A stretch of DNA of 64,000 nt from Naegleria gruberi (lineage: Eukaryota), in the NCBI GenBank assembly GCA_000004985.1, contig GG738901.1; one strand, 5' to 3'. Under the pieces are notes generated by a model. The model was not told where the DNA came from. It did not search any database and was given only the letters and a program-made list of their open reading frames with translations. Within the stretch, counting starts at the first letter, position 1, and every line of letters begins with the position of its first letter. The translations under genes and the position numbers were made by a program. Positions 915 to 61,916 of this stretch are shown piece after piece.

Positions 915-2633
915 ATGTCAGCAACACTAACAAACCTCTCACACGATGATCTGTTTAATATTCTCGATTTTATTTATCCCTTCTTTTCAGAATATGTCAA
1001 GGCAGTAGGAGGAAAACAATTCGAAGCTCAACATAAACGAGAATATTTAGCCAAGATAATTTTCGGAATTATGAAAGGAAATAATGAGAGGAAGGATTGG
1101 ATTTTGGATTTTCGTGGTAAACACTCTAAAATTATGGGAATTAAACTTGTTTCCAATTTGAATTATAATGAATACTTTTACAAATCGCTCGACGATTCGA
1201 ATGTTTATGTTCCTGCTTTATATTTGAGAAAGTTTTATGAGGATTTAGTTAAGGAAGTGAAGAATTGGTTACTCATTGCAAAGAATGGTCTTTTCTATGA
1301 AATTTTAATGCAAAGTCACATTCCAATAGTTCAACTTTTTTGGGAAAGTTTATTTCACATTATTTAGAGATACTCCTATTATTATGGGAAGTATGAAGTT
1401 TAAACAATATTACAATTTGGAATTGCCAATGATTCAGGATTATATTTTGGATAATATTATTGTGCATGTGATGAAGGCAGTGGAGGAACCAGTTTGGTTA
1501 TTCGAAACTTTTGTTTTCAATGAAATTTCATCTAAAGATGCCCATAGTTTGGGATTCAAAAGTTATCTACGACATTACCAGTTAGAAGAAGGTGAAAAAC
1601 ACGAATTGTATCAGGATGTTTTGGTGGAAAAGAAAGATTGGACGAGTTTGGCAACTGACAATCATTGGGAAGGTTTCTTGATGTTTCTTTCGGATTGTTT
1701 TAACAGATATCCAACTATTTTAAGTGATTCCAAATATGTAGACTTTATCAATTCTCAATTTGAAAAAGATCTAGGAAGGATTTCAAAATTTACTACTGAG
1801 CTTGCCAAATTCCTTTACCTTGACAGAAATATTCCGATTAATCCTATAATTTCAAACAAGTTGTTTACTCTGTTATCATTCACACCAGTTTTTAAACAAA
1901 TTCTAGAAAAGAAACTGAATGAATTAAGGATAACGACAAGGAAAGAAACTCGTTTCTTGCAAATCTCTTTTTAAGAGATTCACTACTTTCTTCCTCTATT
2001 TTAAATTTACAATTCGAAATAATTGACATGCATTTAGATTATATGGACGAATGTTTGGATAGTAAGGTGATTGATTCACACTTCTCAAAGTGCCCTGTAG
2101 TGACTTATTTCATAGAGGGTGCCCTAATGATGGAAGATTTAAGCGATCCATTGAAAAGTTCCATGATTGTTATTGAGTACATTGAGAAATTTAGGAAATT
2201 ATTCGAAAGGTTCAATAGAAAAAATTTTGGTTATTCAATTTATAGAAATATCATAACATTGTTTTCAAATTTCACCCGCAGTGGTCTTACAGAAGATTCA
2301 TATGAATGGCAGTAACGTTTTATAATCTTTACTGAACTATTCCAAAACCTGGTTTCAAATAAGATTGACGATTTACCCGAAACTGACCTATCTTTTATTT
2401 TCAGATATACCTCCAATGAAAAGATTATCACCTTCCTATTCGAACAACCACCACTATTCCATCAAATGTTAGCAAGATACATTCCAGATAGAATTAATGA
2501 AAATCTTTTGAAAATTATCGAGAAATATGTTGGCAATAACAATTCATATTATCAGAGGAATCAAATTGCAATATCCAATGATGAGAAAAATCTCAATGCT
2601 AAATCTACTACCACTTCTACTTTAAGATTATAA
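915..2633 (+). CDS. Hypothetical protein locus read as four ORF blocks; two phase-consistent introns plus one unresolved frame break
   Basis: ATG at 915 follows an A-run. ORF 915-1367 and ORF 1384-1974 overlap in open frames around a T6 run (1336-1341), which suggests a 1-nt indel. Proposed introns are 1952-2037 (GTTTCT...TTTAG, phase 1) and 2312-2404 (GTAACG...TTTTCAG, phase 2). The last exon, 2405-2633, ends ...STTTSTLRL*. No domain was recognised. Confidence 0.5.
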
Positions 2634-3449
2634 GAAACACATTCTCTTCTTAAGAATGTTGTTATAGGGTTGACTGATTAATGTTGTAATTTATACATAA
2701 GTTTGTTGACCATTTCCATTAGTAGGAGGAGTATAATAAGAAGGTTGTGGAGTAACATAGGTTGGTGGTGGTTGATTGACCATCATTGGTTGACCGTATT
2801 GTGGTTGATAAGGTTGTTGAGTCATCATTGGTTGACCATATGGTTGTTGTGGTGGATATGGTTGACCATAAGGTTGTTGTTGAGGTGGATAATAAACACC
2901 AGGTCCTGGATTTTGAATAACAACTGTAGTGACAGGTGGCATTGTTGGTTGAGCAGTGACAAGAGTAGAAGGCATTGTTGCTACTCCAATGGCAGCTGCT
3001 GCTTGTTGTTCTTGAGCTCTTCTCATCATCATAAGTCTTCTCTTTCTGGAAGCAGCACTAACAATAATGATAATTGCAATAAATATTATGAAACCTGGAA
3101 TTCCAAATCCTAAACCATATCCTAAAGCATCATAATCTCCATAACTATTCGAAACACAAACATTGGAAGAACAAGTTTGGGAAGAAGAACAACATGCATA
3201 ACTAGAAGCAATACATGTTGAATAACCAGATTTTCTACAACAAGTTTGTCCAGATAAGCAATAAACATAATTAGTGGAACCTGTTACTGAGCAACAAATA
3301 CTATCTTGAACAGCTGACACTTGGCTTTCATTGAGAGATGAGAAAGAAAGTTCCCCCTTTAATGAATTATCACCATAAGTTGTCAAACGGGCAGAGATTT
3401 TGGCACCTGACACGAGGAGTAATAACACAACTAGTGAGCTGGCAATTTG
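2583..3449. repeat. Segmental duplication, copy A (paired with 6602-7469)
   Basis: Aligned by eye to 6602-7469. The core is near-identical, with a few substitutions and one 9-bp indel (accaccact, present only in copy B at ~6941-6949). The left ~60 bp are more diverged. Similarity stops right after ...agtgagctgg(c/t)aatt(t/a)ggac. Confidence 0.9.
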
Positions 3450-3899
3450 GACCCATATTCTAATTTGCTCTTTGATTTGAGTTCTTTTCAAAGTTGGAGC
3501 ACTCTTTTTGATGAAACTAATTACTTTTGGAAGAAGGTTGTTGTTGGTTGGATCTGGCTTTGAAGATGAAGGATGAAGTGCTTCGTTTTGATGAATATCG
3601 CACCTTGCTTGGTGGTGATGAATTACCTTCAACTTTACATTACAAAATTCATTGCATTGACATGAAATATAGTAGTAAAGTTGAGGAGTTCCTACTTCAC
3701 ACTTATTGAATTCCTTTCTTTCTGAGTAAATGTCTTTCAATTCATAAATCATATTGTCCTTCATAACTGCTCGGCATAAAGAAGCTTGCTCAGTCACTTC
3801 ATGAACAGAGTGCACCTTCCATGGACGTTGTAAGTGGTTACAAATTCTATCGAACACATCTTGGTGCTCAATATTTGAGAGTAGTGGAGTATAACTCAT
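2691..3899 (-). CDS. Chimeric ORF: N-terminal Cys/His zinc-finger-like region (WRKY/FAR1/FLYWCH-like pattern, weak) fused to a paralog of the Cys-rich single-pass membrane protein with a Pro/Gln/Tyr tail
   Basis: A 402-aa ORF starts at ATG 3899 after an A-run. Residues ~150-402 are near-identical to the 261-aa protein at 6702-7487. However, its signal-peptide Met and 5' flank are replaced by ...YYYISCQCNEFCNVKLKVIHHHQARCDIHQNEALH... The ORF crosses the duplication breakpoint at ~3449. Confidence 0.6.
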   Translation of the reverse strand: MSYTPLLSNIEHQDVFDRICNHLQRPWKVHSVHEVTEQASLCRAVMKDNMIYELKDIYSERKEFNKCEVGTPQLYYYISCQCNEFCNVKLKVIHHHQARCDIHQNEALHPSSSKPDPTNNNLLPKVISFIKKSAPTLKRTQIKEQIRIWVQIASSLVVLLLLVSGAKISARLTTYGDNSLKGELSFSSLNESQVSAVQDSICCSVTGSTNYVYCLSGQTCCRKSGYSTCIASSYACCSSSQTCSSNVCVSNSYGDYDALGYGLGFGIPGFIIFIAIIIIVSAASRKRRLMMMRRAQEQQAAAAIGVATMPSTLVTAQPTMPPVTTVVIQNPGPGVYYPPQQQPYGQPYPPQQPYGQPMMTQQPYQPQYGQPMMVNQPPPTYVTPQPSYYTPPTNGNGQQTYV

Positions 3900-4779
3900 T
3901 CTATTTTTTTTGCTTGTTGTTGATGAATTGTTCCTTATTGTTGTTTTGTGGTTCTATTGCAAGATATATGTGTTGGTGTGTTGTGTGGTGTTTGTTGTAT
4001 CGTTAAGAATTTTTTTGATTGGTTGAACAATTGGCGCCATGTTTAATTTCCGTGTTTTGCCTTTTAGGAACAATAAAATTTGCTGTTTAAGAACAAAAAA
4101 TTGCAAATTAAGATGGATTTCTAAATTGTTCACAAATATGTACTTTACTGTGCTGGATGTAATGGAAAATAATGCTACTCAAATTAAGATATTAGACTTC
4201 CTTAAAAGTCAAAAAGACTAAGACACAAATTACAGTTTCAAGCGAGGAGCAGGGGTAGAAATCTTACTTTTAATTTAGGGTTCATCAAAAAATTGCGAAA
4301 TAATTGGGGTAAACAACATTATTTATTTATTTATTTCTTCTTTCGTGCTCTACTAGAGTTTCTCTTTACTGCTTCTTCAAATTGTGAATTCTTTGGTCCA
4401 CGTTTTTGTTTCTATAGCGGTTCTTCTTGTTCCAATTCCTTCTCTTGTTAAGGCTATGGAATTATCGTTGCTGAGAAAGTCTTCTTCACTTTTTCTTTGT
4501 TATGATGGGGTGAAGTACAAAATAATTGTATCGTGCTGGTTGTTGTGGATTAATCTTCCTTTCTATTTACAAAAGTGTATAACCAATTACCATCTCTACT
4601 AAGGTAATATATCCTTTAGTAATTTCTTGATGGAAATAGCTCTTGGCATTCATGAAGCGAAGGTAAGGTGTTTTATTGTAGGTGCAGTGGAAACATTTGG
4701 GAGTGCCTGCTTTTGTTTTGGTAGAGGATTTGGTTCCTTGAGGTTTTTTTAAATATTTACAACAAAGAACACAGCAGAA

Positions 4780-6600
4780 GAGGTTTTCGAAAAGATAAGA
4801 ACAGATTCGTGACAACAACTTACAACAGTTGGATGGAAAACGATGCATTCGGTCAACTCTGGGAGAAAGACTCACTGAATTATCTGAGATTATTGTGTGC
4901 CTCCTTTAGGTCTGATCCCCCAAGCTCTTTTCCATCTAATCGAGAGCGAACGGAACTTTTGAAGTGCTGTAGTGGCCAACTTCTCATTGGTTCTCAATAC
5001 TATTAAGGATTTCCTTAAAAGTGAGAAAGGTTCCAAGAATGCTTAGTGTGGATCCATACACCGAATTGTTCAACAAATTCGAAGTTTATGGAGCTTTCCA
5101 ATGGTTCGTAGTGATTCACAATATTCCAAGATCCAATCCTCATACAATAGAATACTTTGCAACTTACCTTTCAGAAAGGGTATGTTTTAAACAATTTGAA
5201 GCCAGCTCTTCAATCTTTTGTAGACGTTGAAGGTTGGAAACTTAATGTTCCCAATGGTTTTGCTAGACTAAAGAAAGGACTTTCATAAGGGTTACTACAT
5301 TGTTGATAGAAAGAAACTAAAAAATAAATGGAGTTTCAGCTTATGATATTAAGAATTATATTGATTCCGTGGCTTCCCATAATGAATTCACAGAATGTGG
5401 CAGGAGAATTGCAAAAGTATTTTTCATTCCATCAGAGAAAAATTCAATTGCATACAAACTTTGCTAAGCCTTTTAAGCGATTGGAAATCATCACCAGAAT
5501 TGATAAGTATGGTAGAAAAAGAATGCGGAAACCACACCATCGACAGATTTGCAACATCAGAGTAGGCAACGACAATCCAATTCAACTCTTGGTTAGAAAA
5601 CGATGCGGTTCAAGAACTTTGGGAACAAAACTCAATCAATTATTGTGTTCCTCCAATAGGTCTGATACCACAAGCTCTATTTCACTTGATCCCATCAAAG
5701 GATATAGCAACATTCGTAGTTCCTTTTTGGCTAACAGCTTACTGATCTTGCTAAAGATATCTTTTGAACAGAGAAGTGTTCCGCTCCAATGGCTTATAAC
5801 AGAGCATTACAACGAACTGCACAAACTATCAGGCAATCTTTAGTTCATGGCAGTCAAAGTGAATGGAATGCTCTCCTTTCAATGAGATTTCAGGCTTTAT
5901 CTACTGCTCTTGCAGAATCCACAGTCAAAAAGTATTCTTTAACTTATTCAGAATTTTCTTATTTCTGTCTACTCCATTATTTTAAAACATTCAGAAATTA
6001 GAGCCCCACCCTCTTGCAGTTCACAAAAAGCTCTACAGGTTGAATAATTTGAAACCTACGTTAGATTTCTATTCAAATTTGGAAGGATGGATCCGTAAAT
6101 TATTCCAATCAATTCTAGAATTCAAACAAGGTTTGAATAAGTTTTATTCACGAGCTGATATTGACACTTGATACTCCTTTTATCAGTTGGGTTTCTTTTG
6201 ATCTTTCTGGTCACAAAACAGACCAAAATTTGACAGATGAAGAAACTCCTATTGAGGAAATAAGAAATACTGTCCAGTTTATAACCTTAGAAGATACATG
6301 GATTATGCCAGATCGTGAGATGAAAATTTTAAGGATTTGGCAATTATTGAATAAAGACTTGATGTTATTTGAAAAGATTTCAAAGTTGGCTCAATCTTCA
6401 GCTAATTATCAAAAGATTGATGTTTGATTTCTTGTGTTGTTTCAAAATAAAGAACTTTAAAACACAAAAAAGTTGTTTTGAGACAGCTGGTAATTGGGTG
6501 CCTAATTCAAAAGTGAGATTGAGATATCAACGTAGAATTGGCCTTGCTACTCATGGTTTAACTACTTCTATTATGAGAACTGATTAATTGTATATATAAA
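4780..6600 (+). mobile_element. Decayed tyrosine-recombinase retroelement/Crypton-like fragments (DIRS/Ngaro-like), two tandem partial copies
   Basis: Copy 2, frame of 5539-5745, reads IDRFATSE*ATTIQFNSWLENDAVQELWEQNSINYCVPPIGLIPQALFHLIPSKDIATFVVPFWLTAY*. This is the (D/I)xFA(S/T)...N...W...DA...W...NY.PP..LI...ATxVVPxW block typical of YR-element polyproteins, here with an in-frame TAG at 5563-5565. Copy 1 at ~4790-4990 reads DKNRFVTTTYNSWMENDAFGQLWEKDSLNY... SAM-like integrase N-terminal strings follow each copy (IEYFATYLSE..., STVKKYSLTYSEFSYFC), as does NNLKP(A/T)L...EGW. A KYCPVYNLRRYM motif lies at ~6265-6300. There are multiple frameshifts and stops, and the boundaries are uncertain. 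Confidence 0.55.
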
Positions 6601-6601
6601 T

Positions 6602-7469
6602 AGAAAAATGTCAATGCTGCTACTAGTTCAACTTTAAGATTATAAGAAACCGTTTCTCTTCTTAAGAATGTTGTTATCGGGTTGACTGATTAATGTTTAA
6701 TTTATACATAAGTTTGTTGACCATTTCCATTGGTAGGAGGAGTATAATAAGAAGGTTGTGGAGTAACATAGGTTGGTGGTGGTTGATTGGCCATCATTGG
6801 TTGACCGTATTGTGGTTGATAAGGTTGTTGAGTCATCATTGGTTGACCATATGGTTGTTGTGGTGGATATTGTTGACCATAAGGTTGTTGTTGAGGTGGA
6901 TAATAAACACCAGGTCCAGGATTTTGAATAACAACTGTAGTACCACCACTGACAGGTGGCATTGTTGGTTGAGCAGTGACAAGAGTAGAAGGCATTGTTG
7001 CTACTCCAACGGCAGCTGCTGCTTGTTGTTCTTGAGCTCTTCTCATCATCATAAGTCTTCTCTTTCTAGAAGCAGCACTAACAATAATGATAATTGCAAT
7101 AAATATTATGAAACCTGGAATTCCAAATCCTAAACCATATCCTAAAGCATCATAATCTCCATAACTATTCGAAACGCAAACATTGGAAGAACAAGTTTGT
7201 GAAGAGGAACAACATGCATAACTAGAAGCAATACATGTTGAATAACCAGATTTTCTACAACAAGTTTGTCCAGATAAGCAATAAACATAATTAGTGGAAC
7301 CTGTCACTGAGCAACAAATACTATCTTGAACAGCTGACACTTGGCTTTCATTGAGAGATGAGAAAGAAAGTTCCCCCTTTAATGAATTATCATCATAAGT
7401 TGTCAAACGGGCAGAGATTTTGGCACCTGACACGAGGAGTAATAACACAACTAGTGAGCTGGTAATTAG
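6602..7469. repeat. Segmental duplication, copy B (paired with 2583-3449)
   Basis: See copy A. The offset between copies is ~4.02 kb. Copy B carries the intact gene 6702-7487 and a ~45-nt relic of the 3' end of the 915-2633 CDS. Confidence 0.9.
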
Positions 7470-7487
7470 GACGAGAATTGATTTCAT
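6702..7487 (-). CDS. Secreted/type I membrane protein: signal peptide, Cys-rich ectodomain, one TM helix, basic stop-transfer, Pro/Gln/Tyr-rich cytoplasmic tail with a PPxY-like motif
   Basis: A 261-aa ORF starts at ATG 7487 after an A-run. It reads MKSILVLITSSLVVLLLLVSG (signal), CCSVTGSTNYVYCLSGQTCCRKSGYSTCIASSYACCSSSQTCSSNVC, then TM GIPGFIIFIAIIIIVSAA followed by SRKRRLMMMRR. The tail has PQQPYGQ repeats and PPPTY. Confidence 0.8.
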   Translation of the reverse strand: MKSILVLITSSLVVLLLLVSGAKISARLTTYDDNSLKGELSFSSLNESQVSAVQDSICCSVTGSTNYVYCLSGQTCCRKSGYSTCIASSYACCSSSQTCSSNVCVSNSYGDYDALGYGLGFGIPGFIIFIAIIIIVSAASRKRRLMMMRRAQEQQAAAAVGVATMPSTLVTAQPTMPPVSGGTTVVIQNPGPGVYYPPQQQPYGQQYPPQQPYGQPMMTQQPYQPQYGQPMMANQPPPTYVTPQPSYYTPPTNGNGQQTYV

Positions 7488-8323
7488 TTTTTTTAATGGG
7501 GAAAAGTAAGAAGGAATTTATTTTGTTGATATTTACAACATAATGTTGATGAACCTGAGAGCTGCCTTTCAACAACATTCGAATAGCACTATGGTGGAAT
7601 AGAGATAGGAAGGTGAGGTGTCAATGTCAGCAGTATCTTTTGTTTGGTACTTTTTTAGACCCCAAGATTCGTTTAGGCTACGATACTTGCCAAAAATTAT
7701 GTTGTATTACGTTTTCTCAAGCCTGTTTGTGTTTCACAAAAAATAATTAGCGATTAATTTGAAAACTATATTTGTATTGATGTGTTTTGAATTCGTCCAA
7801 AAAGTAGTGAGGTGTTGTGACATTAATTTCTACTTGTTGTTGCATAGAATTGTTTTTCAGTGTAGTTTTACACTCTAACTCTATCGATTCAATCAATTGA
7901 TTGATCTACATACAACAGTGAAAGATTTTGACAATTCCTTACGATTATCTCTAAAATAATTATTGAACCAAAAACTTGTTTTATTGTTCTGGTATTAAAA
8001 ATTGAACAAATGCTCAATACTATTGCTCAATTTCTTAGTCTTTTTTTGAATGTCTTGTGATATTCAGGGTGAGAGGATCTGTGACAGGGCTTTTTTATGA
8101 TGACCAAACACTGTTAAGTTGACAAGCAAACATCTTTAGTAAACTATTTTTAACAGATATTCAGTTCTCAAAACCATAACATTTAAACTTTTTCAATTTT
8201 TACGAATTCAATAAGGAAAACAAATTCGAATAGAATTTCAATTCGTTCTAAAAATCTTTGTCATTAAGTTCACTATTCACATGTCCAGCACCATGAACTT
8301 GATTCCAAAAATCATTAAAAAAA

Positions 8324-9808
8324 ATGCTTAAAATCAGTTCTACTACTGCCTTCACGACTCGCTCACCAACAATCAAACAACAATTGCAAAAACAAATCTT
8401 TTCCGATGATATTTGCTTTGAAATTTTATCATTTCTTGATTTTAAATTTATTCTAACGAATTGTTGTTTAATTTCTCATCAGTGGGAGAATGTCATCAAT
8501 GTACAATCTAATTTATCAGTCATTTTCAATAATCAAAAAGTGACGAATGAATTTATTGATAAATTAATGAAAAATAGTTATTTGAAACGTTTCGTTTCGT
8601 TGAAAACTAGAGAAAGAAGCTTTTTGCATGATCGAGAAAAAGTTTTGAAACTTGTTGGAATGATGCAGAATTTGAAATCACTCTCCATTGTTGGTAATGG
8701 ATTAGTGGATGAACATTTGAAAGAAATTAGTGAAATGAAAGGTTTAACTTTACTCGATGTGAGTGAGAATAAGTTTGGAAAGGAAGGTGCGGAAAAAATT
8801 AGTGGAATGGTTGGATTGACCACATTGAATATTAATGATAATTATATACTTGATGAAGGGGCTAAATTCATTGGAACGATGAAACAATTGACCTTGTTGA
8901 AAATGAAATATTGTGAAATTAGAGAAGAAGGTGCGAGAGCAATAAGTGAATTGAAAAATTTAACATTTCTCAATCTGCATGGTAATTTTATAGGTGATAA
9001 AGGAGCCAGCTATATAAGTGAAATGGTCAATCTGACACATCTCAATGTTGGTAGCACCCAATTGACAGCTGAAGGGGCAAGACATGTTAGTGGACTCAAA
9101 AATCTGAAATCTCTATTGATTCATACCAATCAAATTGGACATCAAGGAGCAAAGTGGATTAGTACAATGAAAGATCTGGAAGGGTTGACTTCACTTGATG
9201 TTAGTGGAAACTCCATTCTTGATCAAGGAGTACAATATTTGAGTGAAATGTCAAATCTGACACATTTAGATATTGGAAGTAATCATGTTGGAGTTAAAGG
9301 AATTGAATCAATTATTGGAATGAAAGGATTAATCTCGCTAAATGTCAGTAGTAATGATTTGGGATCATCAGGAGCAAAGTTAATCAGTGGAATGTCAAAT
9401 TTAACCTCACTAAACATTTCAGCCAATCGACTATTAGGTGAAGGAGCTAAATTTATTGGAGAAATGCATAACGTAACAATATTAGTTATCAGAAACAATG
9501 ATATTGGTGATGAAGGAGCCAAATTCATTTGTAAAATGAAACAATTGAAATCTCTCAATGCTGTGTATAATAGAATATCTTCGAAAGGATTTGAATCAAT
9601 AAGTGAAATGAAACAATTAACATCACTTGATATTGGTTACAACAGTATTGACTCAAAAGGAGCTAAATCTGTTCGCAAATTGAAAAATTTGACTTCTCTC
9701 AATGTCAGAAGTAATATGATAGATGATGAAGGATTGAAAGCTATTGGTCAACTCAAAATTCCTTATCTAACCACTGGATATCAACAAGCAAAACAATCCA
9801 ATAATTAA
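8324..9808 (+). CDS. F-box-like + RNI-type leucine-rich repeat protein
   Basis: A 494-aa ORF starts at ATG after an A-run. The N-terminal F-box-like string is ICFEILSFLDFKFILTNCCLISHQWENVI. About 16 tandem 24-residue repeats follow, of the form LTxLxxxxNxIGxEGAKxISxMKx. Confidence 0.85.
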   Translation: MLKISSTTAFTTRSPTIKQQLQKQIFSDDICFEILSFLDFKFILTNCCLISHQWENVINVQSNLSVIFNNQKVTNEFIDKLMKNSYLKRFVSLKTRERSFLHDREKVLKLVGMMQNLKSLSIVGNGLVDEHLKEISEMKGLTLLDVSENKFGKEGAEKISGMVGLTTLNINDNYILDEGAKFIGTMKQLTLLKMKYCEIREEGARAISELKNLTFLNLHGNFIGDKGASYISEMVNLTHLNVGSTQLTAEGARHVSGLKNLKSLLIHTNQIGHQGAKWISTMKDLEGLTSLDVSGNSILDQGVQYLSEMSNLTHLDIGSNHVGVKGIESIIGMKGLISLNVSSNDLGSSGAKLISGMSNLTSLNISANRLLGEGAKFIGEMHNVTILVIRNNDIGDEGAKFICKMKQLKSLNAVYNRISSKGFESISEMKQLTSLDIGYNSIDSKGAKSVRKLKNLTSLNVRSNMIDDEGLKAIGQLKIPYLTTGYQQAKQSNN

Positions 9809-9893: not shown

Positions 9894-9964
9894 CTCCCCC
9901 TGGTGGGTTGAATATCGACCTGCAGATTAACAGTCTGACGCTCTACCGACTGAGCTAAGGGGGA
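9894..9964 (-). tRNA. tRNA-Asn(GUU)-like gene with defective T-arm (possible pseudogene)
   Basis: The minus strand reads TCCCCCT TA GCTC AGTCGGTA GAGC G TCAGA CTGTTAA TCTGC AGGTC GATATTCAACCCACC AGGGGGA G. The 7-bp acceptor and the D-arm are perfect, the anticodon stem has a 27:43 mismatch, and the anticodon is GTT. However, the T-arm is 2 nt short and its 5' strand cannot pair with CCACC, so the B-box is degraded. A T5 run lies just downstream. Confidence 0.5.
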
Positions 9965-10514: not shown

Positions 10515-11119
10515 ATGAGAGAAAGTGGCGTAGTAAGTATTTGCATCTTGTGAAAACAATCTCACAAACTGTCTTTCTCATTACCCAAATGGTTTCTAAT
10601 ATACTTTCGAATAATAACAATATCGTTTTGTGATGATCATTATTAATAGGCTTATCTTCTTTGGTTAGGTTGTTGTATTGGATTCTTCGGTTTGCACCGT
10701 TTCTATTTGGACTCTGTCATTTTGGGTGTCATCTGGTTCTGTACTGCTGGTTTGTTCGGCTTTGGTCAATTGATTGATCTTAGTAAGTAATCTTATTTCT
10801 AATATATGATGATTTAACCATTATCTATTACTCACACTAACACACATTCCAACTTTCTCTGTTACGAAAATCAACTTTCGAATAACAATTTAATTCTAAA
10901 GTCCTCATCCCAGGTATGGTCGATGAATGTAACCGTAAATATGGTACTCCACAAGTTACCACTGCTGTTACCAACGTAACAACTTATCAAACTCAACCAC
11001 AAGTCCAACAACCATACGTCCCACCACAACAAGCATATTATCCACCACAACAAGGTTATGTTCCTCCACAACAAGGATATGCTCAACAACCTGCTGTTAA
11101 TGTTTATGTTCAACAATAA
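10515..11119 (+). CDS. TM2 domain-containing membrane protein with Pro/Gln/Tyr-rich tail (3 exons)
   Basis: Exons are 10515-10532, 10650-10782 and 10914-11119. Both introns are GTAAGT...AG, the phases are consistent, and the total is 357 nt. The product is [55 protein letters not shown]..., which carries the TM2 signature G..G.HRFYL...G......G..G..Q..D. Confidence 0.8.
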
Positions 11120-61037: not shown

Positions 61038-61916
61038 TTAATTTAGTTTAATAAAACTAGGTGGAACACTTGGAAAGTGTTTAATATATTCAATTCCTCC
61101 TCCATTAGCTATTTCGTCCCTATGAATATCGAGATATTTCAAATTCTTCATTTCACTAATCAATTTTGCACTATCAGCTTTCAAACGATTATCGAAAATA
61201 TTGAGAGCTGTCAGATTGTTCATTTCACAAATGTGTTTAGCTCCGTTGTGAGTTATATCACTGCAGGCAATGTCGAGTTTAGTCAACTGATTTAGTTCAC
61301 TTAAATATTTGGCTCCTTCTTTCTCAATACTATTTCTGTGAATACTGAGATCGGTCAATTGTTTCAATTTGCAAATTGATTTGACTCCCTCGACATCCAT
61401 TCTATTACAAGCAATATCAAGATATGTTAAATTTTCAAGTTGACTAATATATTCAGCTCCTTCATTTCCAATATTATTGTAAATAATATTGAGCTCTCTC
61501 AATTGTTTCAATTTACCAATCTCCTTGGCACCTTTTACTCCAAGTTTGTTCATTCCTATATCAAGCTTTGTCAATTGACTCATCTTTTGTAAAGCATCCA
61601 AAACATTGTCCAAAACTCCATCTTCCAACAATGTGTTTAATTGAAATTTCGCACCAATAACATTTTCCAAAAATTCACTTTGCATCATTAGTCTACTATT
61701 TTCTAAAGTGATACTTTGGGTAAAGTGCAAATTAATTTTGGTGAATTGTTTAATAATTTGCTTCCACTGTTTAGAAATTAAAACACCACTCCATAGTAGA
61801 AATTCATGTGGAAGATATAAAATTATTTCTGAACAAATATCATCGGGAAAGTTGAAATTATTCAGAGTTTTGATGCTTGTGGTTGTGGTGGTGGTGCTTG
61901 TTGTGTGATTAATCAT
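61038..61916 (-). CDS. F-box-like + RNI-type LRR protein
   Basis: The tracked ORF starts at a TTG (62084). The first ATG (61916) follows an A-run and removes the overlap with the upstream ORF. It has an F-box-like string DICSEIILYLPHEFLLWSGVLISKQWKQII and about 8 repeats of 24-25 residues with xGxEGAKxIS. Confidence 0.8.
   Translation of the reverse strand: MINHTTSTTTTTTSIKTLNNFNFPDDICSEIILYLPHEFLLWSGVLISKQWKQIIKQFTKINLHFTQSITLENSRLMMQSEFLENVIGAKFQLNTLLEDGVLDNVLDALQKMSQLTKLDIGMNKLGVKGAKEIGKLKQLRELNIIYNNIGNEGAEYISQLENLTYLDIACNRMDVEGVKSICKLKQLTDLSIHRNSIEKEGAKYLSELNQLTKLDIACSDITHNGAKHICEMNNLTALNIFDNRLKADSAKLISEMKNLKYLDIHRDEIANGGGIEYIKHFPSVPPSFIKLN

What the first reader, a model, noticed from the sequence alone, without database searches (positions are those of the whole stretch)
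2583..7469. Recent 0.86-kb direct duplication bracketing mobile-element debris
Blocks 2583-3449 and 6602-7469 are near-identical in the core, with a few substitutions and one in-frame 9-bp indel. They lie ~4.02 kb apart in direct orientation. Each contains the 3' relic or end of the upstream gene, the intergenic spacer and most of a Cys-rich membrane-protein gene. The intervening 3.15 kb holds a zinc-finger-like ORF segment and frameshifted tyrosine-recombinase-element fragments whose 3' end abuts copy B. This pattern fits a duplication or rearrangement mediated by, or contemporaneous with, element activity.
Basis: seen in the sequence. Interest (0 to 1): 0.6.

Follow-up and report, generated by a model that had tools for sequence, protein, structure and literature searches.

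The report
Gene duplication with junk-DNA insert, Naegleria
In the Naegleria gruberi reference genome an 0.87-kb piece carrying most of a small membrane-protein gene is duplicated in place, with 3.15 kb of dead transposon fragments between the copies, which fuses one copy to the start of a transposase gene to give an annotated chimeric gene; this is an ordinary kind of genome rearrangement, not a new mechanism.

Summary
R_A (2584-3452) and R_B (6602-7472) are direct repeats about 97% identical, separated by a 3149-bp insert (3453-6601). The copy-A ORF is 100% identical to Naegleria gruberi protein NAEGRDRAFT_52539, so the window matches that reference genome.

A 1.5-kb contig from an independent sample (L001, ERR1078381) carries one copy and joins R_A's left flank directly to R_B's right flank. 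It is the empty, pre-duplication architecture. With L001 as outgroup, A, B and L001 have about equal private changes. The duplication is therefore about as old as that lineage split (A-B about 2.4%), not strikingly recent.

The insert is a patchwork:
- The first 149 codons and native ATG of a probable Mutator-like (MULE/SWIM) transposase, minus strand.
- Two degenerate, co-oriented DIRS1-like fragments, plus strand.

Both insert ends fall inside element coding sequence, with no terminal repeats or short target duplication. This argues against element-catalysed formation. It favours break-repair or replication template switching that duplicated 0.87 kb and copied in dead repeat DNA.

Copy B is the intact parental gene. 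Copy A lost its promoter and five codons and is fused in frame to the transposase fragment. Assembly error is unlikely but untested; public Nanopore reads exist.

The parts
2404..2633 (+). Last exon and 3' end of the upstream (left-flank) gene. Its final 50 nt (2584-2633) lie inside repeat copy A.
   Evidence: ORFs. A polypyrimidine tract plus CAG precedes 2404, read from the alignment. The region is conserved in L001 (3 mismatches in 199 nt).
2584..3452 (.). Repeat copy A (R_A, 869 bp). Its left side is contiguous with the ancestral left flank.
   Evidence: L001 aligns through 3452-2373.
2691..3899 (-). Chimeric 402-aa ORF, identical to N. gruberi NAEGRDRAFT_52539 / XP_002672021.1. It joins 149 codons of a transposase N-terminus to codons 6-261 of the Cys-rich membrane-protein gene.
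   Evidence: It is 402/402 identical to P0006.
3453..6601 (.). Insert I (3149 bp), absent from the single-copy contig L001. It is a patchwork of dead mobile-element sequence.
   Evidence: No bounding repeats were found.
3453..3899 (-). N-terminal 149 codons, with the native ATG at 3899, of a probable Mutator-like (MULE/FAR1-SWIM type) transposase. It is truncated at junction 1.
   Evidence: It hits P0003 (73% identity, E 6e-43) and P0004 (27% identity, E 1e-7), and the start codons align. P0004 lies directly upstream of an ORF with a SWIM domain (19.8 bits, cut-off 19.6) and a sub-threshold MULE domain. No other MULE remnant is in the window.
3900..4790 (.). Unassigned AT-rich part of the insert. 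It may be the upstream or terminal region of the MULE fragment.
   Evidence: No Pfam hits in the three plus-strand frames; the minus-strand frames were not scanned. No similarity to L002 beyond window 3915.
4790..5300 (+). DIRS1-like fragment 1. It holds the end of the methyltransferase-like domain and a putative recombinase N-terminal region, is frameshifted, and is 50-80% aa identical to fragment 2.
   Evidence: Direct repeats 4823-4883/5583-5643 and 4889-4941/5639-5691. tblastn results.
5300..6601 (+). DIRS1-like fragment 2. It holds the methyltransferase-like domain (5386-5796) and a putative recombinase ORF relic (5789-6587), with many stops and an internal deletion. It ends at junction 2.
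   Evidence: Pfam Dam hit, E 0.0024. It is 95% and 78% aa identical to N. gruberi P0002 in two segments and lacks about P0002 residues 130-185. Frames are shown.
6602..7472 (.). Repeat copy B (R_B, 871 bp). Its right side is contiguous with the ancestral right flank. Positions 6602-6645 are a relic of the upstream gene's 3' end.
   Evidence: L001 aligns through 7703-6602.
6702..7487 (-). Intact parental gene (261 aa): signal peptide, Cys-rich ectodomain, one transmembrane helix and a P/Q/Y-rich tail. It is specific to the Naegleria lineage.
   Evidence: It is 97% identical to P0001, and no other homologue was found among 5.8 billion proteins. Alignment.
7473..7703 (.). Ancestral 5' flank (promoter region) of the Cys-rich gene, shared with L001 but not with copy A.

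Best explanation
This is an in-place duplication of an 869-bp segment with a 3.15-kb piece of already-dead repeat DNA at the duplication junction. It was made by DNA break repair or replication template switching, not by a transposase or recombinase.

Most likely sequence of events (inferred):
1. A break or fork collapse occurred at the 5' end of the Cys-rich gene, between codons 5 and 6.
2. One end was extended on the sister chromatid or homologue back through the gene, to 107 nt past its stop codon.
3. Synthesis then switched to, or captured, an ectopic stretch. That stretch held a MULE transposase 5' fragment next to DIRS1-like relics.
4. The product was end-joined to the other broken end, giving L-R-I-R-Rt.

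Consequences (shown):
- Copy B keeps the original promoter and ATG and is the intact gene.
- Copy A lost both. It is fused in frame behind the transposase's own ATG and 149 codons, creating the annotated chimeric gene NAEGRDRAFT_52539.
For: Shown:
- The independent single-copy contig L001 joins R_A's left flank to R_B's right flank with nothing between, so the 3149-bp insert plus one repeat copy is extra.
- A-private and B-private changes are interspersed along the repeat, so L001 is not a simple A/B crossover product. The three branches are about equal: A 12 events, B 10-12, L001 10-11.
- Both insert ends lie inside element coding sequence: codon 149 of the transposase, and the end of the DIRS-like ORF relic. 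The two elements belong to unrelated classes and have opposite orientations.
- No terminal inverted or direct repeats bound the insert, and there is no short target-site duplication.
- The DIRS-like pieces carry many stops, frameshifts and a deletion of about 56 codons relative to paralogue P0002. Published work found N. gruberi DIRS1-like copies too corrupted by frameshifts and indels for phylogenetic analysis (PMC3266345).
- No extended homology exists at the ancestral breakpoints. The shared GAGAA is not significant, because 9.7% of random breakpoint pairs do as well.

From the literature: tandem duplications of about 0.1-10 kb (median about 1 kb) arise by end-joining of aborted strand-invasion intermediates, and in the same system end-joining junctions often carry templated 'patchwork' insertions (PMC8654963).
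Against: - 'Templated from elsewhere' and junction microhomology are therefore untested.
- A 3.15-kb junctional insertion is large for polymerase-theta-type filler.
- The order of events (one step or several) cannot be read from the sequence.
- The assembly was not checked against reads.
- L001 could in principle be a reversion, formed by recombination between the copies soon after the duplication, rather than the retained ancestral state.
Confidence: 0.55

Rival explanations
1. Two separate events. A simple tandem duplication of R came first and the 3.15-kb DNA was inserted later, or the insertion came first at one R boundary and R was copied to the other side later.
For: The insert is a patchwork of two element classes, which shows the region has accumulated several events at some time. 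GAGAA is present at both ancestral breakpoints and could have mediated a clean tandem duplication.
Against: The insert sits exactly at the duplication junction: homology ends at 3452 and resumes at 6602, with no loss of R sequence. A later independent insertion would hit that junction with a chance of roughly 1 in several hundred. The GAGAA match is not significant.
Confidence: 0.12
2. Campbell-type re-integration. An extrachromosomal circle containing R joined to the 3.15-kb DNA recombined homologously with the chromosomal R, which duplicated R on either side of the insert.
For: The topology L-R-I-R-Rt is exactly what a single crossover of a circle carrying R would give. DIRS-type elements use circular intermediates (PMC3266345).
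Against: It needs the same two non-homologous joints plus an additional recombination step. R is not part of any element. There is no evidence of such a circle. The DIRS-like pieces are truncated and dead.
Confidence: 0.1
3. Element-catalysed rearrangement. This would be either alternative (reversed-ends) transposition of a DNA transposon, which is known to make tandem direct duplications with the element at the junction, or tyrosine-recombinase-mediated recombination.
For: Element-derived sequence lies exactly between the copies. The Ac/Ds precedent is PMC3744419.
Against: Neither insert end is an element terminus: codon 149 of the transposase ORF on one side, and the end of a recombinase-like ORF relic on the other. 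There are no terminal repeats and no 8-11-bp target duplication. Only about 15% of the transposase gene is present. DIRS1 integration makes no target duplication (PMC3266345). No intact element is visible.
Confidence: 0.06
4. Assembly artefact or haplotype mix-up. The two copies would be alleles or reads wrongly placed in tandem in the reference assembly.
For: The assembly could not be checked against reads. From memory, not verified here, the strain is not haploid and shows heterozygosity.
Against: There are no Ns in the window. Each copy has about a dozen private changes relative to an outgroup. Both novel junctions, R-end to insert-start and insert-end to R-start, must exist in reads, and no simple insertion allele would produce both. 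The annotated 402-aa gene spans junction 1.
Confidence: 0.07

Closest known systems
Small tandem duplications from end-joining of aborted strand-invasion (SDSA) intermediates, and template-switch (FoSTeS/MMBIR-type) duplications with inserted sequence at the junction
   Same: The duplicated segment is in the 0.1-10 kb size class. The copies are direct and in place. There is no extended homology at the breakpoints, and foreign DNA sits exactly at the junction (PMC8654963).
   Different: The junctional insert is 3.15 kb, far longer than the typical filler. Its donor, and any microhomology, were not seen.
Tandem direct duplications made by reversed-ends (alternative) transposition of maize Ac/Ds (Zhang, Zuo and Peterson 2013)
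   Same: The two direct copies are separated by transposon sequence (PMC3744419).
   Different: In the maize cases the junctions carry the 8-bp target duplications characteristic of Ac/Ds and involve the termini of two nearby elements. Here both junctions are inside coding sequence of dead fragments, with no target duplication.
Host-transposase chimeric genes (for example SETMAR; transposase DNA-binding domain capture) and Pack-MULE chimeras. These comparisons are from memory.
   Same: A transposase N-terminal, probably DNA-binding, domain with its own start codon is fused in frame to host coding sequence and is annotated as a gene.
   Different: The partner is a membrane protein, not a chromatin or transcription domain. 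The host fragment was not captured between element termini. Expression and function are untested.
DIRS1-like retrotransposon relics of N. gruberi (Piednoel et al. 2011)
   Same: Degenerate, frameshifted copies with a methyltransferase-like domain followed by a recombinase-like ORF. The closest match is another N. gruberi copy (PMC3266345).
   Different: Only partial fragments are present. No RT/RNase H and no terminal or internal complementary repeats were found. The recombinase part is not recognised by any profile.

Membership tests
Repair/replication-based tandem duplication with junctional insertion | The outer flanks of the two copies are contiguous in the unduplicated state | tested here: met
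   L001 joins window 2373-2583 to R and then to 7473-7703.
Repair/replication-based tandem duplication with junctional insertion | No extended homology at the breakpoints (not NAHR) | tested here: met
   Only a 5-nt GAGAA is shared, and 9.7% of random breakpoint pairs match as well. No repeats are present at the ancestral breakpoints.
Repair/replication-based tandem duplication with junctional insertion | The inserted DNA is copied from another genomic locus, with microhomology at the switch points | not testable with these tools
Only a diverged paralogue, P0002, is known, on another scaffold.
Alternative-transposition tandem direct duplication (Ac/Ds type) | Element termini at the duplication junctions | tested here: not met
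   The junctions lie at codon 149 of the transposase ORF and at the end of the DIRS-like ORF relic.
Alternative-transposition tandem direct duplication (Ac/Ds type) | Element-typical short target-site duplication at the breakpoints | tested here: not met
   None is present at 3452/3453 or 6601/6602.
Transposon insertion with target-site duplication | A short target duplication (a few to about 20 bp) flanking one complete element | tested here: not met
   The flanking repeat is 869 bp, and the insert is fragments of two element classes.
Pack-MULE-type gene-fragment capture | The host fragment lies between MULE terminal inverted repeats, away from its native flank | tested here: not met
   R_A is still joined to its native left flank, and no terminal inverted repeats were found.
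MULE / FAR1-SWIM transposase (left part of the insert) | MULE DDE domain and SWIM zinc finger | tested here: inconclusive
   Both are absent from the window. In the contig of the distant homologue P0004, the next ORF has SWIM at 19.8 bits (cut-off 19.6) and MULE at 17.7 bits (cut-off 27.6).
MULE / FAR1-SWIM transposase (left part of the insert) | Recognisable N-terminal zinc-finger DNA-binding domain | tested here: inconclusive
   Three Cys are invariant and the His run is shared by the window and P0004 only. There is no Pfam or PDB hit. The AlphaFold model has pLDDT 32.6.
DIRS1-like retrotransposon (right part of the insert) | Methyltransferase-like domain | tested here: inconclusive
   Pfam Dam, E 0.0024, 18 bits against a cut-off of 28.1.
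DIRS1-like retrotransposon (right part of the insert) | Tyrosine recombinase domain | tested here: inconclusive
   Motif-level resemblance only. No hit in Pfam, PHROGs, NCBIfam or PDB.
DIRS1-like retrotransposon (right part of the insert) | RT/RNase H domains and inverted terminal plus internal complementary repeats | tested here: not met
   No RT/RNase H hit for the plus-strand frames of 3900-5450 or the fragments scanned downstream, and no such repeats. The pieces are truncated fragments.
False duplication in the assembly | The copies collapse to one in long reads | not testable with these tools
   No reads are available here. Indirect evidence is against it: private changes in each copy, no Ns, and two distinct junctions.

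The most novel reading that the evidence does not exclude
The chimera NAEGRDRAFT_52539 (2691-3899, minus strand) may be a young, expressed and selectively maintained gene. It would be driven by the promoter and first 149 codons of a Mutator-like transposase and would carry the duplicated membrane protein.

In this reading the former signal peptide becomes an internal signal-anchor. The Cys-rich domain would still face outside, and a new zinc-finger-like domain would face the cytosol.

Hints: the 402-codon frame is intact, the only coding indel is in frame, and dN/dS is about 0.23 on the copy-A branch (P=0.06 alone).
Probability: 0.2. Interest if true: 0.45.

Novelty: new member of a known kind. 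Interest (0 to 1): 0.25.

Why it matters
This is a clean case in a deep-branching protist. An empty-site comparator shows how a small in-place duplication plus captured dead-transposon DNA can create a new chimeric open reading frame. In the reference genome that chimera appears to be the annotated gene, while the intact parental copy seems not to be. The case is useful for curating the N. gruberi annotation and as an example of gene birth by rearrangement. It does not reveal a new mechanism or element.

Tried and rejected
- Exact-protein look-ups of four window ORFs and of P0002/P0006 found no contigs, so the rest of the N. gruberi genome could not be searched for the insert's donor.
- Two scans of the JGI metagenome collection, one with a 25-mer and one with the protein, found no further copies of the gene.
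- Pfam, PHROGs, NCBIfam and PDB sequence searches gave no integrase hit for the recombinase-like part, even using a composite with P0002.
- Pfam found no RT/RNase H in the plus-strand frames of 3900-5450.
- The AlphaFold model of the zinc-finger-like domain was unusable (pLDDT 32.6), so no fold search was run. A PDB profile search was empty.
- The shared GAGAA at both ancestral breakpoints was tested as microhomology and is not significant.
- A retrocopy origin of R was considered and rejected: R contains intergenic DNA and the end of the convergent gene, there is no poly(A) at its end, and each copy keeps one native flank.
- A simple crossover origin of L001 from A and B was considered and is not supported, because the private sites are interspersed.
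- Literature searches for ERR1078381 and NAEGRDRAFT_52539 found nothing.
Full report
**Observation**

A self-comparison of the window finds one strong internal match: 2584-3452 against 6602-7472, direct orientation, 95.7% identity over 878 columns including gaps. The repeat finder shows 98% identity in the two core blocks and 87% in the leftmost 91 nt, with spacing of 4011-4020 nt. Pairwise and three-way alignments and the raw junction sequence fix three pieces:
- R_A = 2584-3452 (869 bp)
- insert I = 3453-6601 (3149 bp)
- R_B = 6602-7472 (871 bp)

The copies differ at 22 substituted positions and three indels.

**Source**

The window is low-GC (34%) and packed with long ORFs of eukaryotic type: PARG, protein kinase, LRR/F-box, UvrD helicase and serpin.

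The 402-aa ORF over copy A (2691-3899, minus strand) is 402/402 identical to EFC39277.1 / XP_002672021.1 / NAEGRDRAFT_52539, a 'predicted protein' of Naegleria gruberi on a 309,005-bp scaffold. I take the window to be N. gruberi reference-genome sequence on that basis. From memory, that is strain NEG-M, Sanger-assembled, Fritz-Laylin et al. 2010.

**What is duplicated**

R contains three things:
- the last 50 nt of a plus-strand, intron-containing gene (stop at 2631-2633; 44-nt relic at 6602-6645);
- a 56-57-nt spacer;
- codons 6-261 and the stop of a convergent minus-strand gene.

That minus-strand gene is complete only at copy B (6702-7487, 261 aa). It encodes a signal peptide, a Cys-rich ectodomain, one transmembrane helix and a P/Q/Y-rich tail. 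Among 5.8 billion proteins its only relative is one cluster, so it is a lineage-specific gene.

**Pre-duplication state**

That one cluster holds the chimera and P0001. P0001 is a 261-aa protein, 97% identical, on a 1526-nt contig from an independent sequencing run (L001, Logan assembly of ERR1078381).

- L001 aligns through copy B and on into its right flank (window 7703-6602).
- The same contig aligns through copy A and on into its left flank (3452-2373).
- L001 therefore has the architecture left flank - R - right flank, with one copy and no insert.
- No protein from that run matches the zinc-finger-like or DIRS-like parts of the insert, and the cluster has only two members.

The window is left flank - R_A - I - R_B - right flank. 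Each copy keeps one native flank.

**Age**

I used L001 to polarise the differences. Counts below are events, with each indel and each run of adjacent substitutions counted once.

| Branch | Private events |
|---|---|
| Copy A | 12 (9 substitutions, 3 indels) |
| Copy B | 10-12 (12 substituted positions, three of them adjacent) |
| L001 | 10-11 |

One further site has three different states. A-private and B-private sites are interspersed along the repeat, so L001 is not a single-crossover A/B recombinant.

The tree is essentially a star. The duplication is about as old as the split between the reference lineage and the ERR1078381 lineage, with A-B divergence of about 2.4%. It is not especially recent. 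L001 could also be an early reversion, but a single-copy ancestor is required either way.

**Coding changes on each branch**

| Branch | Non-synonymous | Synonymous | Other |
|---|---|---|---|
| Copy A | 3 | 4 | one in-frame 9-bp deletion |
| Copy B | 3 | 4 | none |
| L001 | 1 | 6 | one complex in-frame change |

- dN/dS is about 0.23 on both paralogue branches (P=0.059 each, 0.007 pooled).
- The 107-bp non-coding part of R has changed four to five times faster per base than the 762-bp coding part, in both copies.
- This hints that both copies, including the chimera, have been constrained. The numbers are too small to be sure.

**The insert, left part (3453-3899, minus strand)**

These 149 codons are open and begin with an ATG. 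An exhaustive search of 1.84 billion representative proteins gave two real hits:
- P0003, 73% identity, E 6e-43, from a metagenome.
- P0004, 27% identity, E 1e-7.

The start codons align, so 3899 is the native start. On its contig, P0004 is followed directly by a 696-aa ORF. That ORF has:
- a full-length but sub-threshold MULE transposase domain at its very start (17.7 bits, E 0.005);
- a SWIM zinc finger about 170 residues later (19.8 bits, cut-off 19.6; CxC...CxH is visible).

That domain order is the Mutator-like/FAR1 architecture, a point I recall from memory. I therefore read the 'zinc-finger-like ORF' as the N-terminal, probably DNA-binding, domain of a MULE-type transposase, cut off at residue 149.

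Two cautions apply. No other part of such a transposase is in the window, and no other annotated protein has this domain. The assignment is moderate in strength, because there is no Pfam or PDB hit for the domain itself and the structure model failed.

**The insert, right part (about 4790-6601, plus strand)**

This part holds two co-oriented, degenerate fragments.

- The better one has a stretch (5386-5796) that hits Pfam Dam methyltransferase weakly (E 0.0024, below the cut-off). This fits the methyltransferase-like domain of DIRS1-type elements (PMC3266345, PMC4738411).
- It is followed by an ORF relic (5789 onward) that is 95% and 78% identical in two segments to another N. gruberi 'predicted protein', P0002, on a different scaffold. 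The window copy lacks about P0002 residues 130-185.
- By eye the relic carries recombinase-like motifs. No profile library or PDB search recognises it as an integrase, so that label is unconfirmed.
- No RT/RNase H domain was found in the plus-strand frames scanned, and there are no terminal or internal complementary repeats.

Piednoel et al. [quoted passage not shown] They also note that DIRS1 integration produces no target-site duplication.

**Mechanism**

The key facts are these:
1. The empty-site architecture exists in L001.
2. The insert sits exactly at the duplication junction.
3. Both insert ends are inside coding sequence of two unrelated, opposite-strand, dead element fragments.
4. There are no element termini and no short target duplication.
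5. There is no extended homology at the ancestral breakpoints. The shared GAGAA is matched by 9.7% of random breakpoint pairs.

Canonical or alternative transposition would require element ends and target duplications (PMC3744419). Recombinase-mediated integration and non-allelic homologous recombination (NAHR) do not fit either.

The structure is what results when a broken or stalled 3' end is extended on the sister or homologue, switches to or captures ectopic DNA, and is then end-joined. That route is known to give tandem duplications of about 0.1-10 kb, and end-joining junctions in the same system can carry patchwork insertions (PMC8654963).

Variants remain possible but are less parsimonious: a two-step origin, or re-integration of a circle carrying R.

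Misassembly is unlikely. There are no Ns, each copy has a dozen private changes, two distinct novel junctions must exist in reads, and the annotated gene spans junction 1. It was not tested against reads, although public NEG-M Nanopore data exist (PMC12344493).

**Consequence**

Copy B retains the native promoter region (7473-7703, conserved with L001) and the ATG. Copy A lost both, and its codon 6 follows codon 149 of the transposase fragment in frame. This gives a 402-aa ORF with its own upstream region and the original 3' end.

The former signal-peptide core would become an internal hydrophobic segment. Whether the chimera is expressed or functional is unknown. Apparently the reference annotation holds the chimera but no protein for the intact copy B.

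**Verdict**

It is a well-resolved example of a known kind of rearrangement, with a modestly interesting by-product in the chimeric gene.

Noticed in passing
window 7703-8112 and about 8226: About 410 bp of intergenic DNA between copy B and the F-box/LRR gene is present in the window but absent from L001. L001 also has an extra 30 bp near window 8226. There are no terminal repeats or target duplication, so this looks like a plain indel polymorphism.
   Followed up: partly
window 6702-7487 (-) vs 2691-3899 (-): The reference annotation contains the chimeric copy A (NAEGRDRAFT_52539). No protein corresponding to the intact parental copy B was found in the protein collection, where the cluster has only two members. 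This may be an annotation gap.
   Followed up: partly
window 10916-11119 (+): A short ORF ends in a P/Q/Y-rich tail similar to the tail of the duplicated gene (80% complementary 30-nt matches to 2829-2858 and 6840-6869). It may be the last exon of a protein with a similar cytoplasmic tail.
   Followed up: no
window 9895-9964 (-): Rfam reports a tRNA hit (38.3 bits, above the gathering score) that ARAGORN does not call. It lies just downstream of the F-box/LRR gene.
   Followed up: no
window 9513-9717 vs 61327-61534: Two LRR_6-type genes at opposite ends of the window share about 68% nucleotide identity in inverted orientation. They are members of an expanded LRR family.
   Followed up: no
L001 1511-1526: The Logan contig ends in Illumina adapter sequence (GACGCTCTTCCGATCT in the window's orientation), so its last 16 nt are not genomic.
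   Followed up: yes
window 4823-4941 vs 5583-5691: The two DIRS-like fragments inside the insert are direct partial copies 750-760 bp apart and only 72-81% identical. The tandem arrangement of element pieces is therefore much older than the 869-bp duplication.
   Followed up: partly
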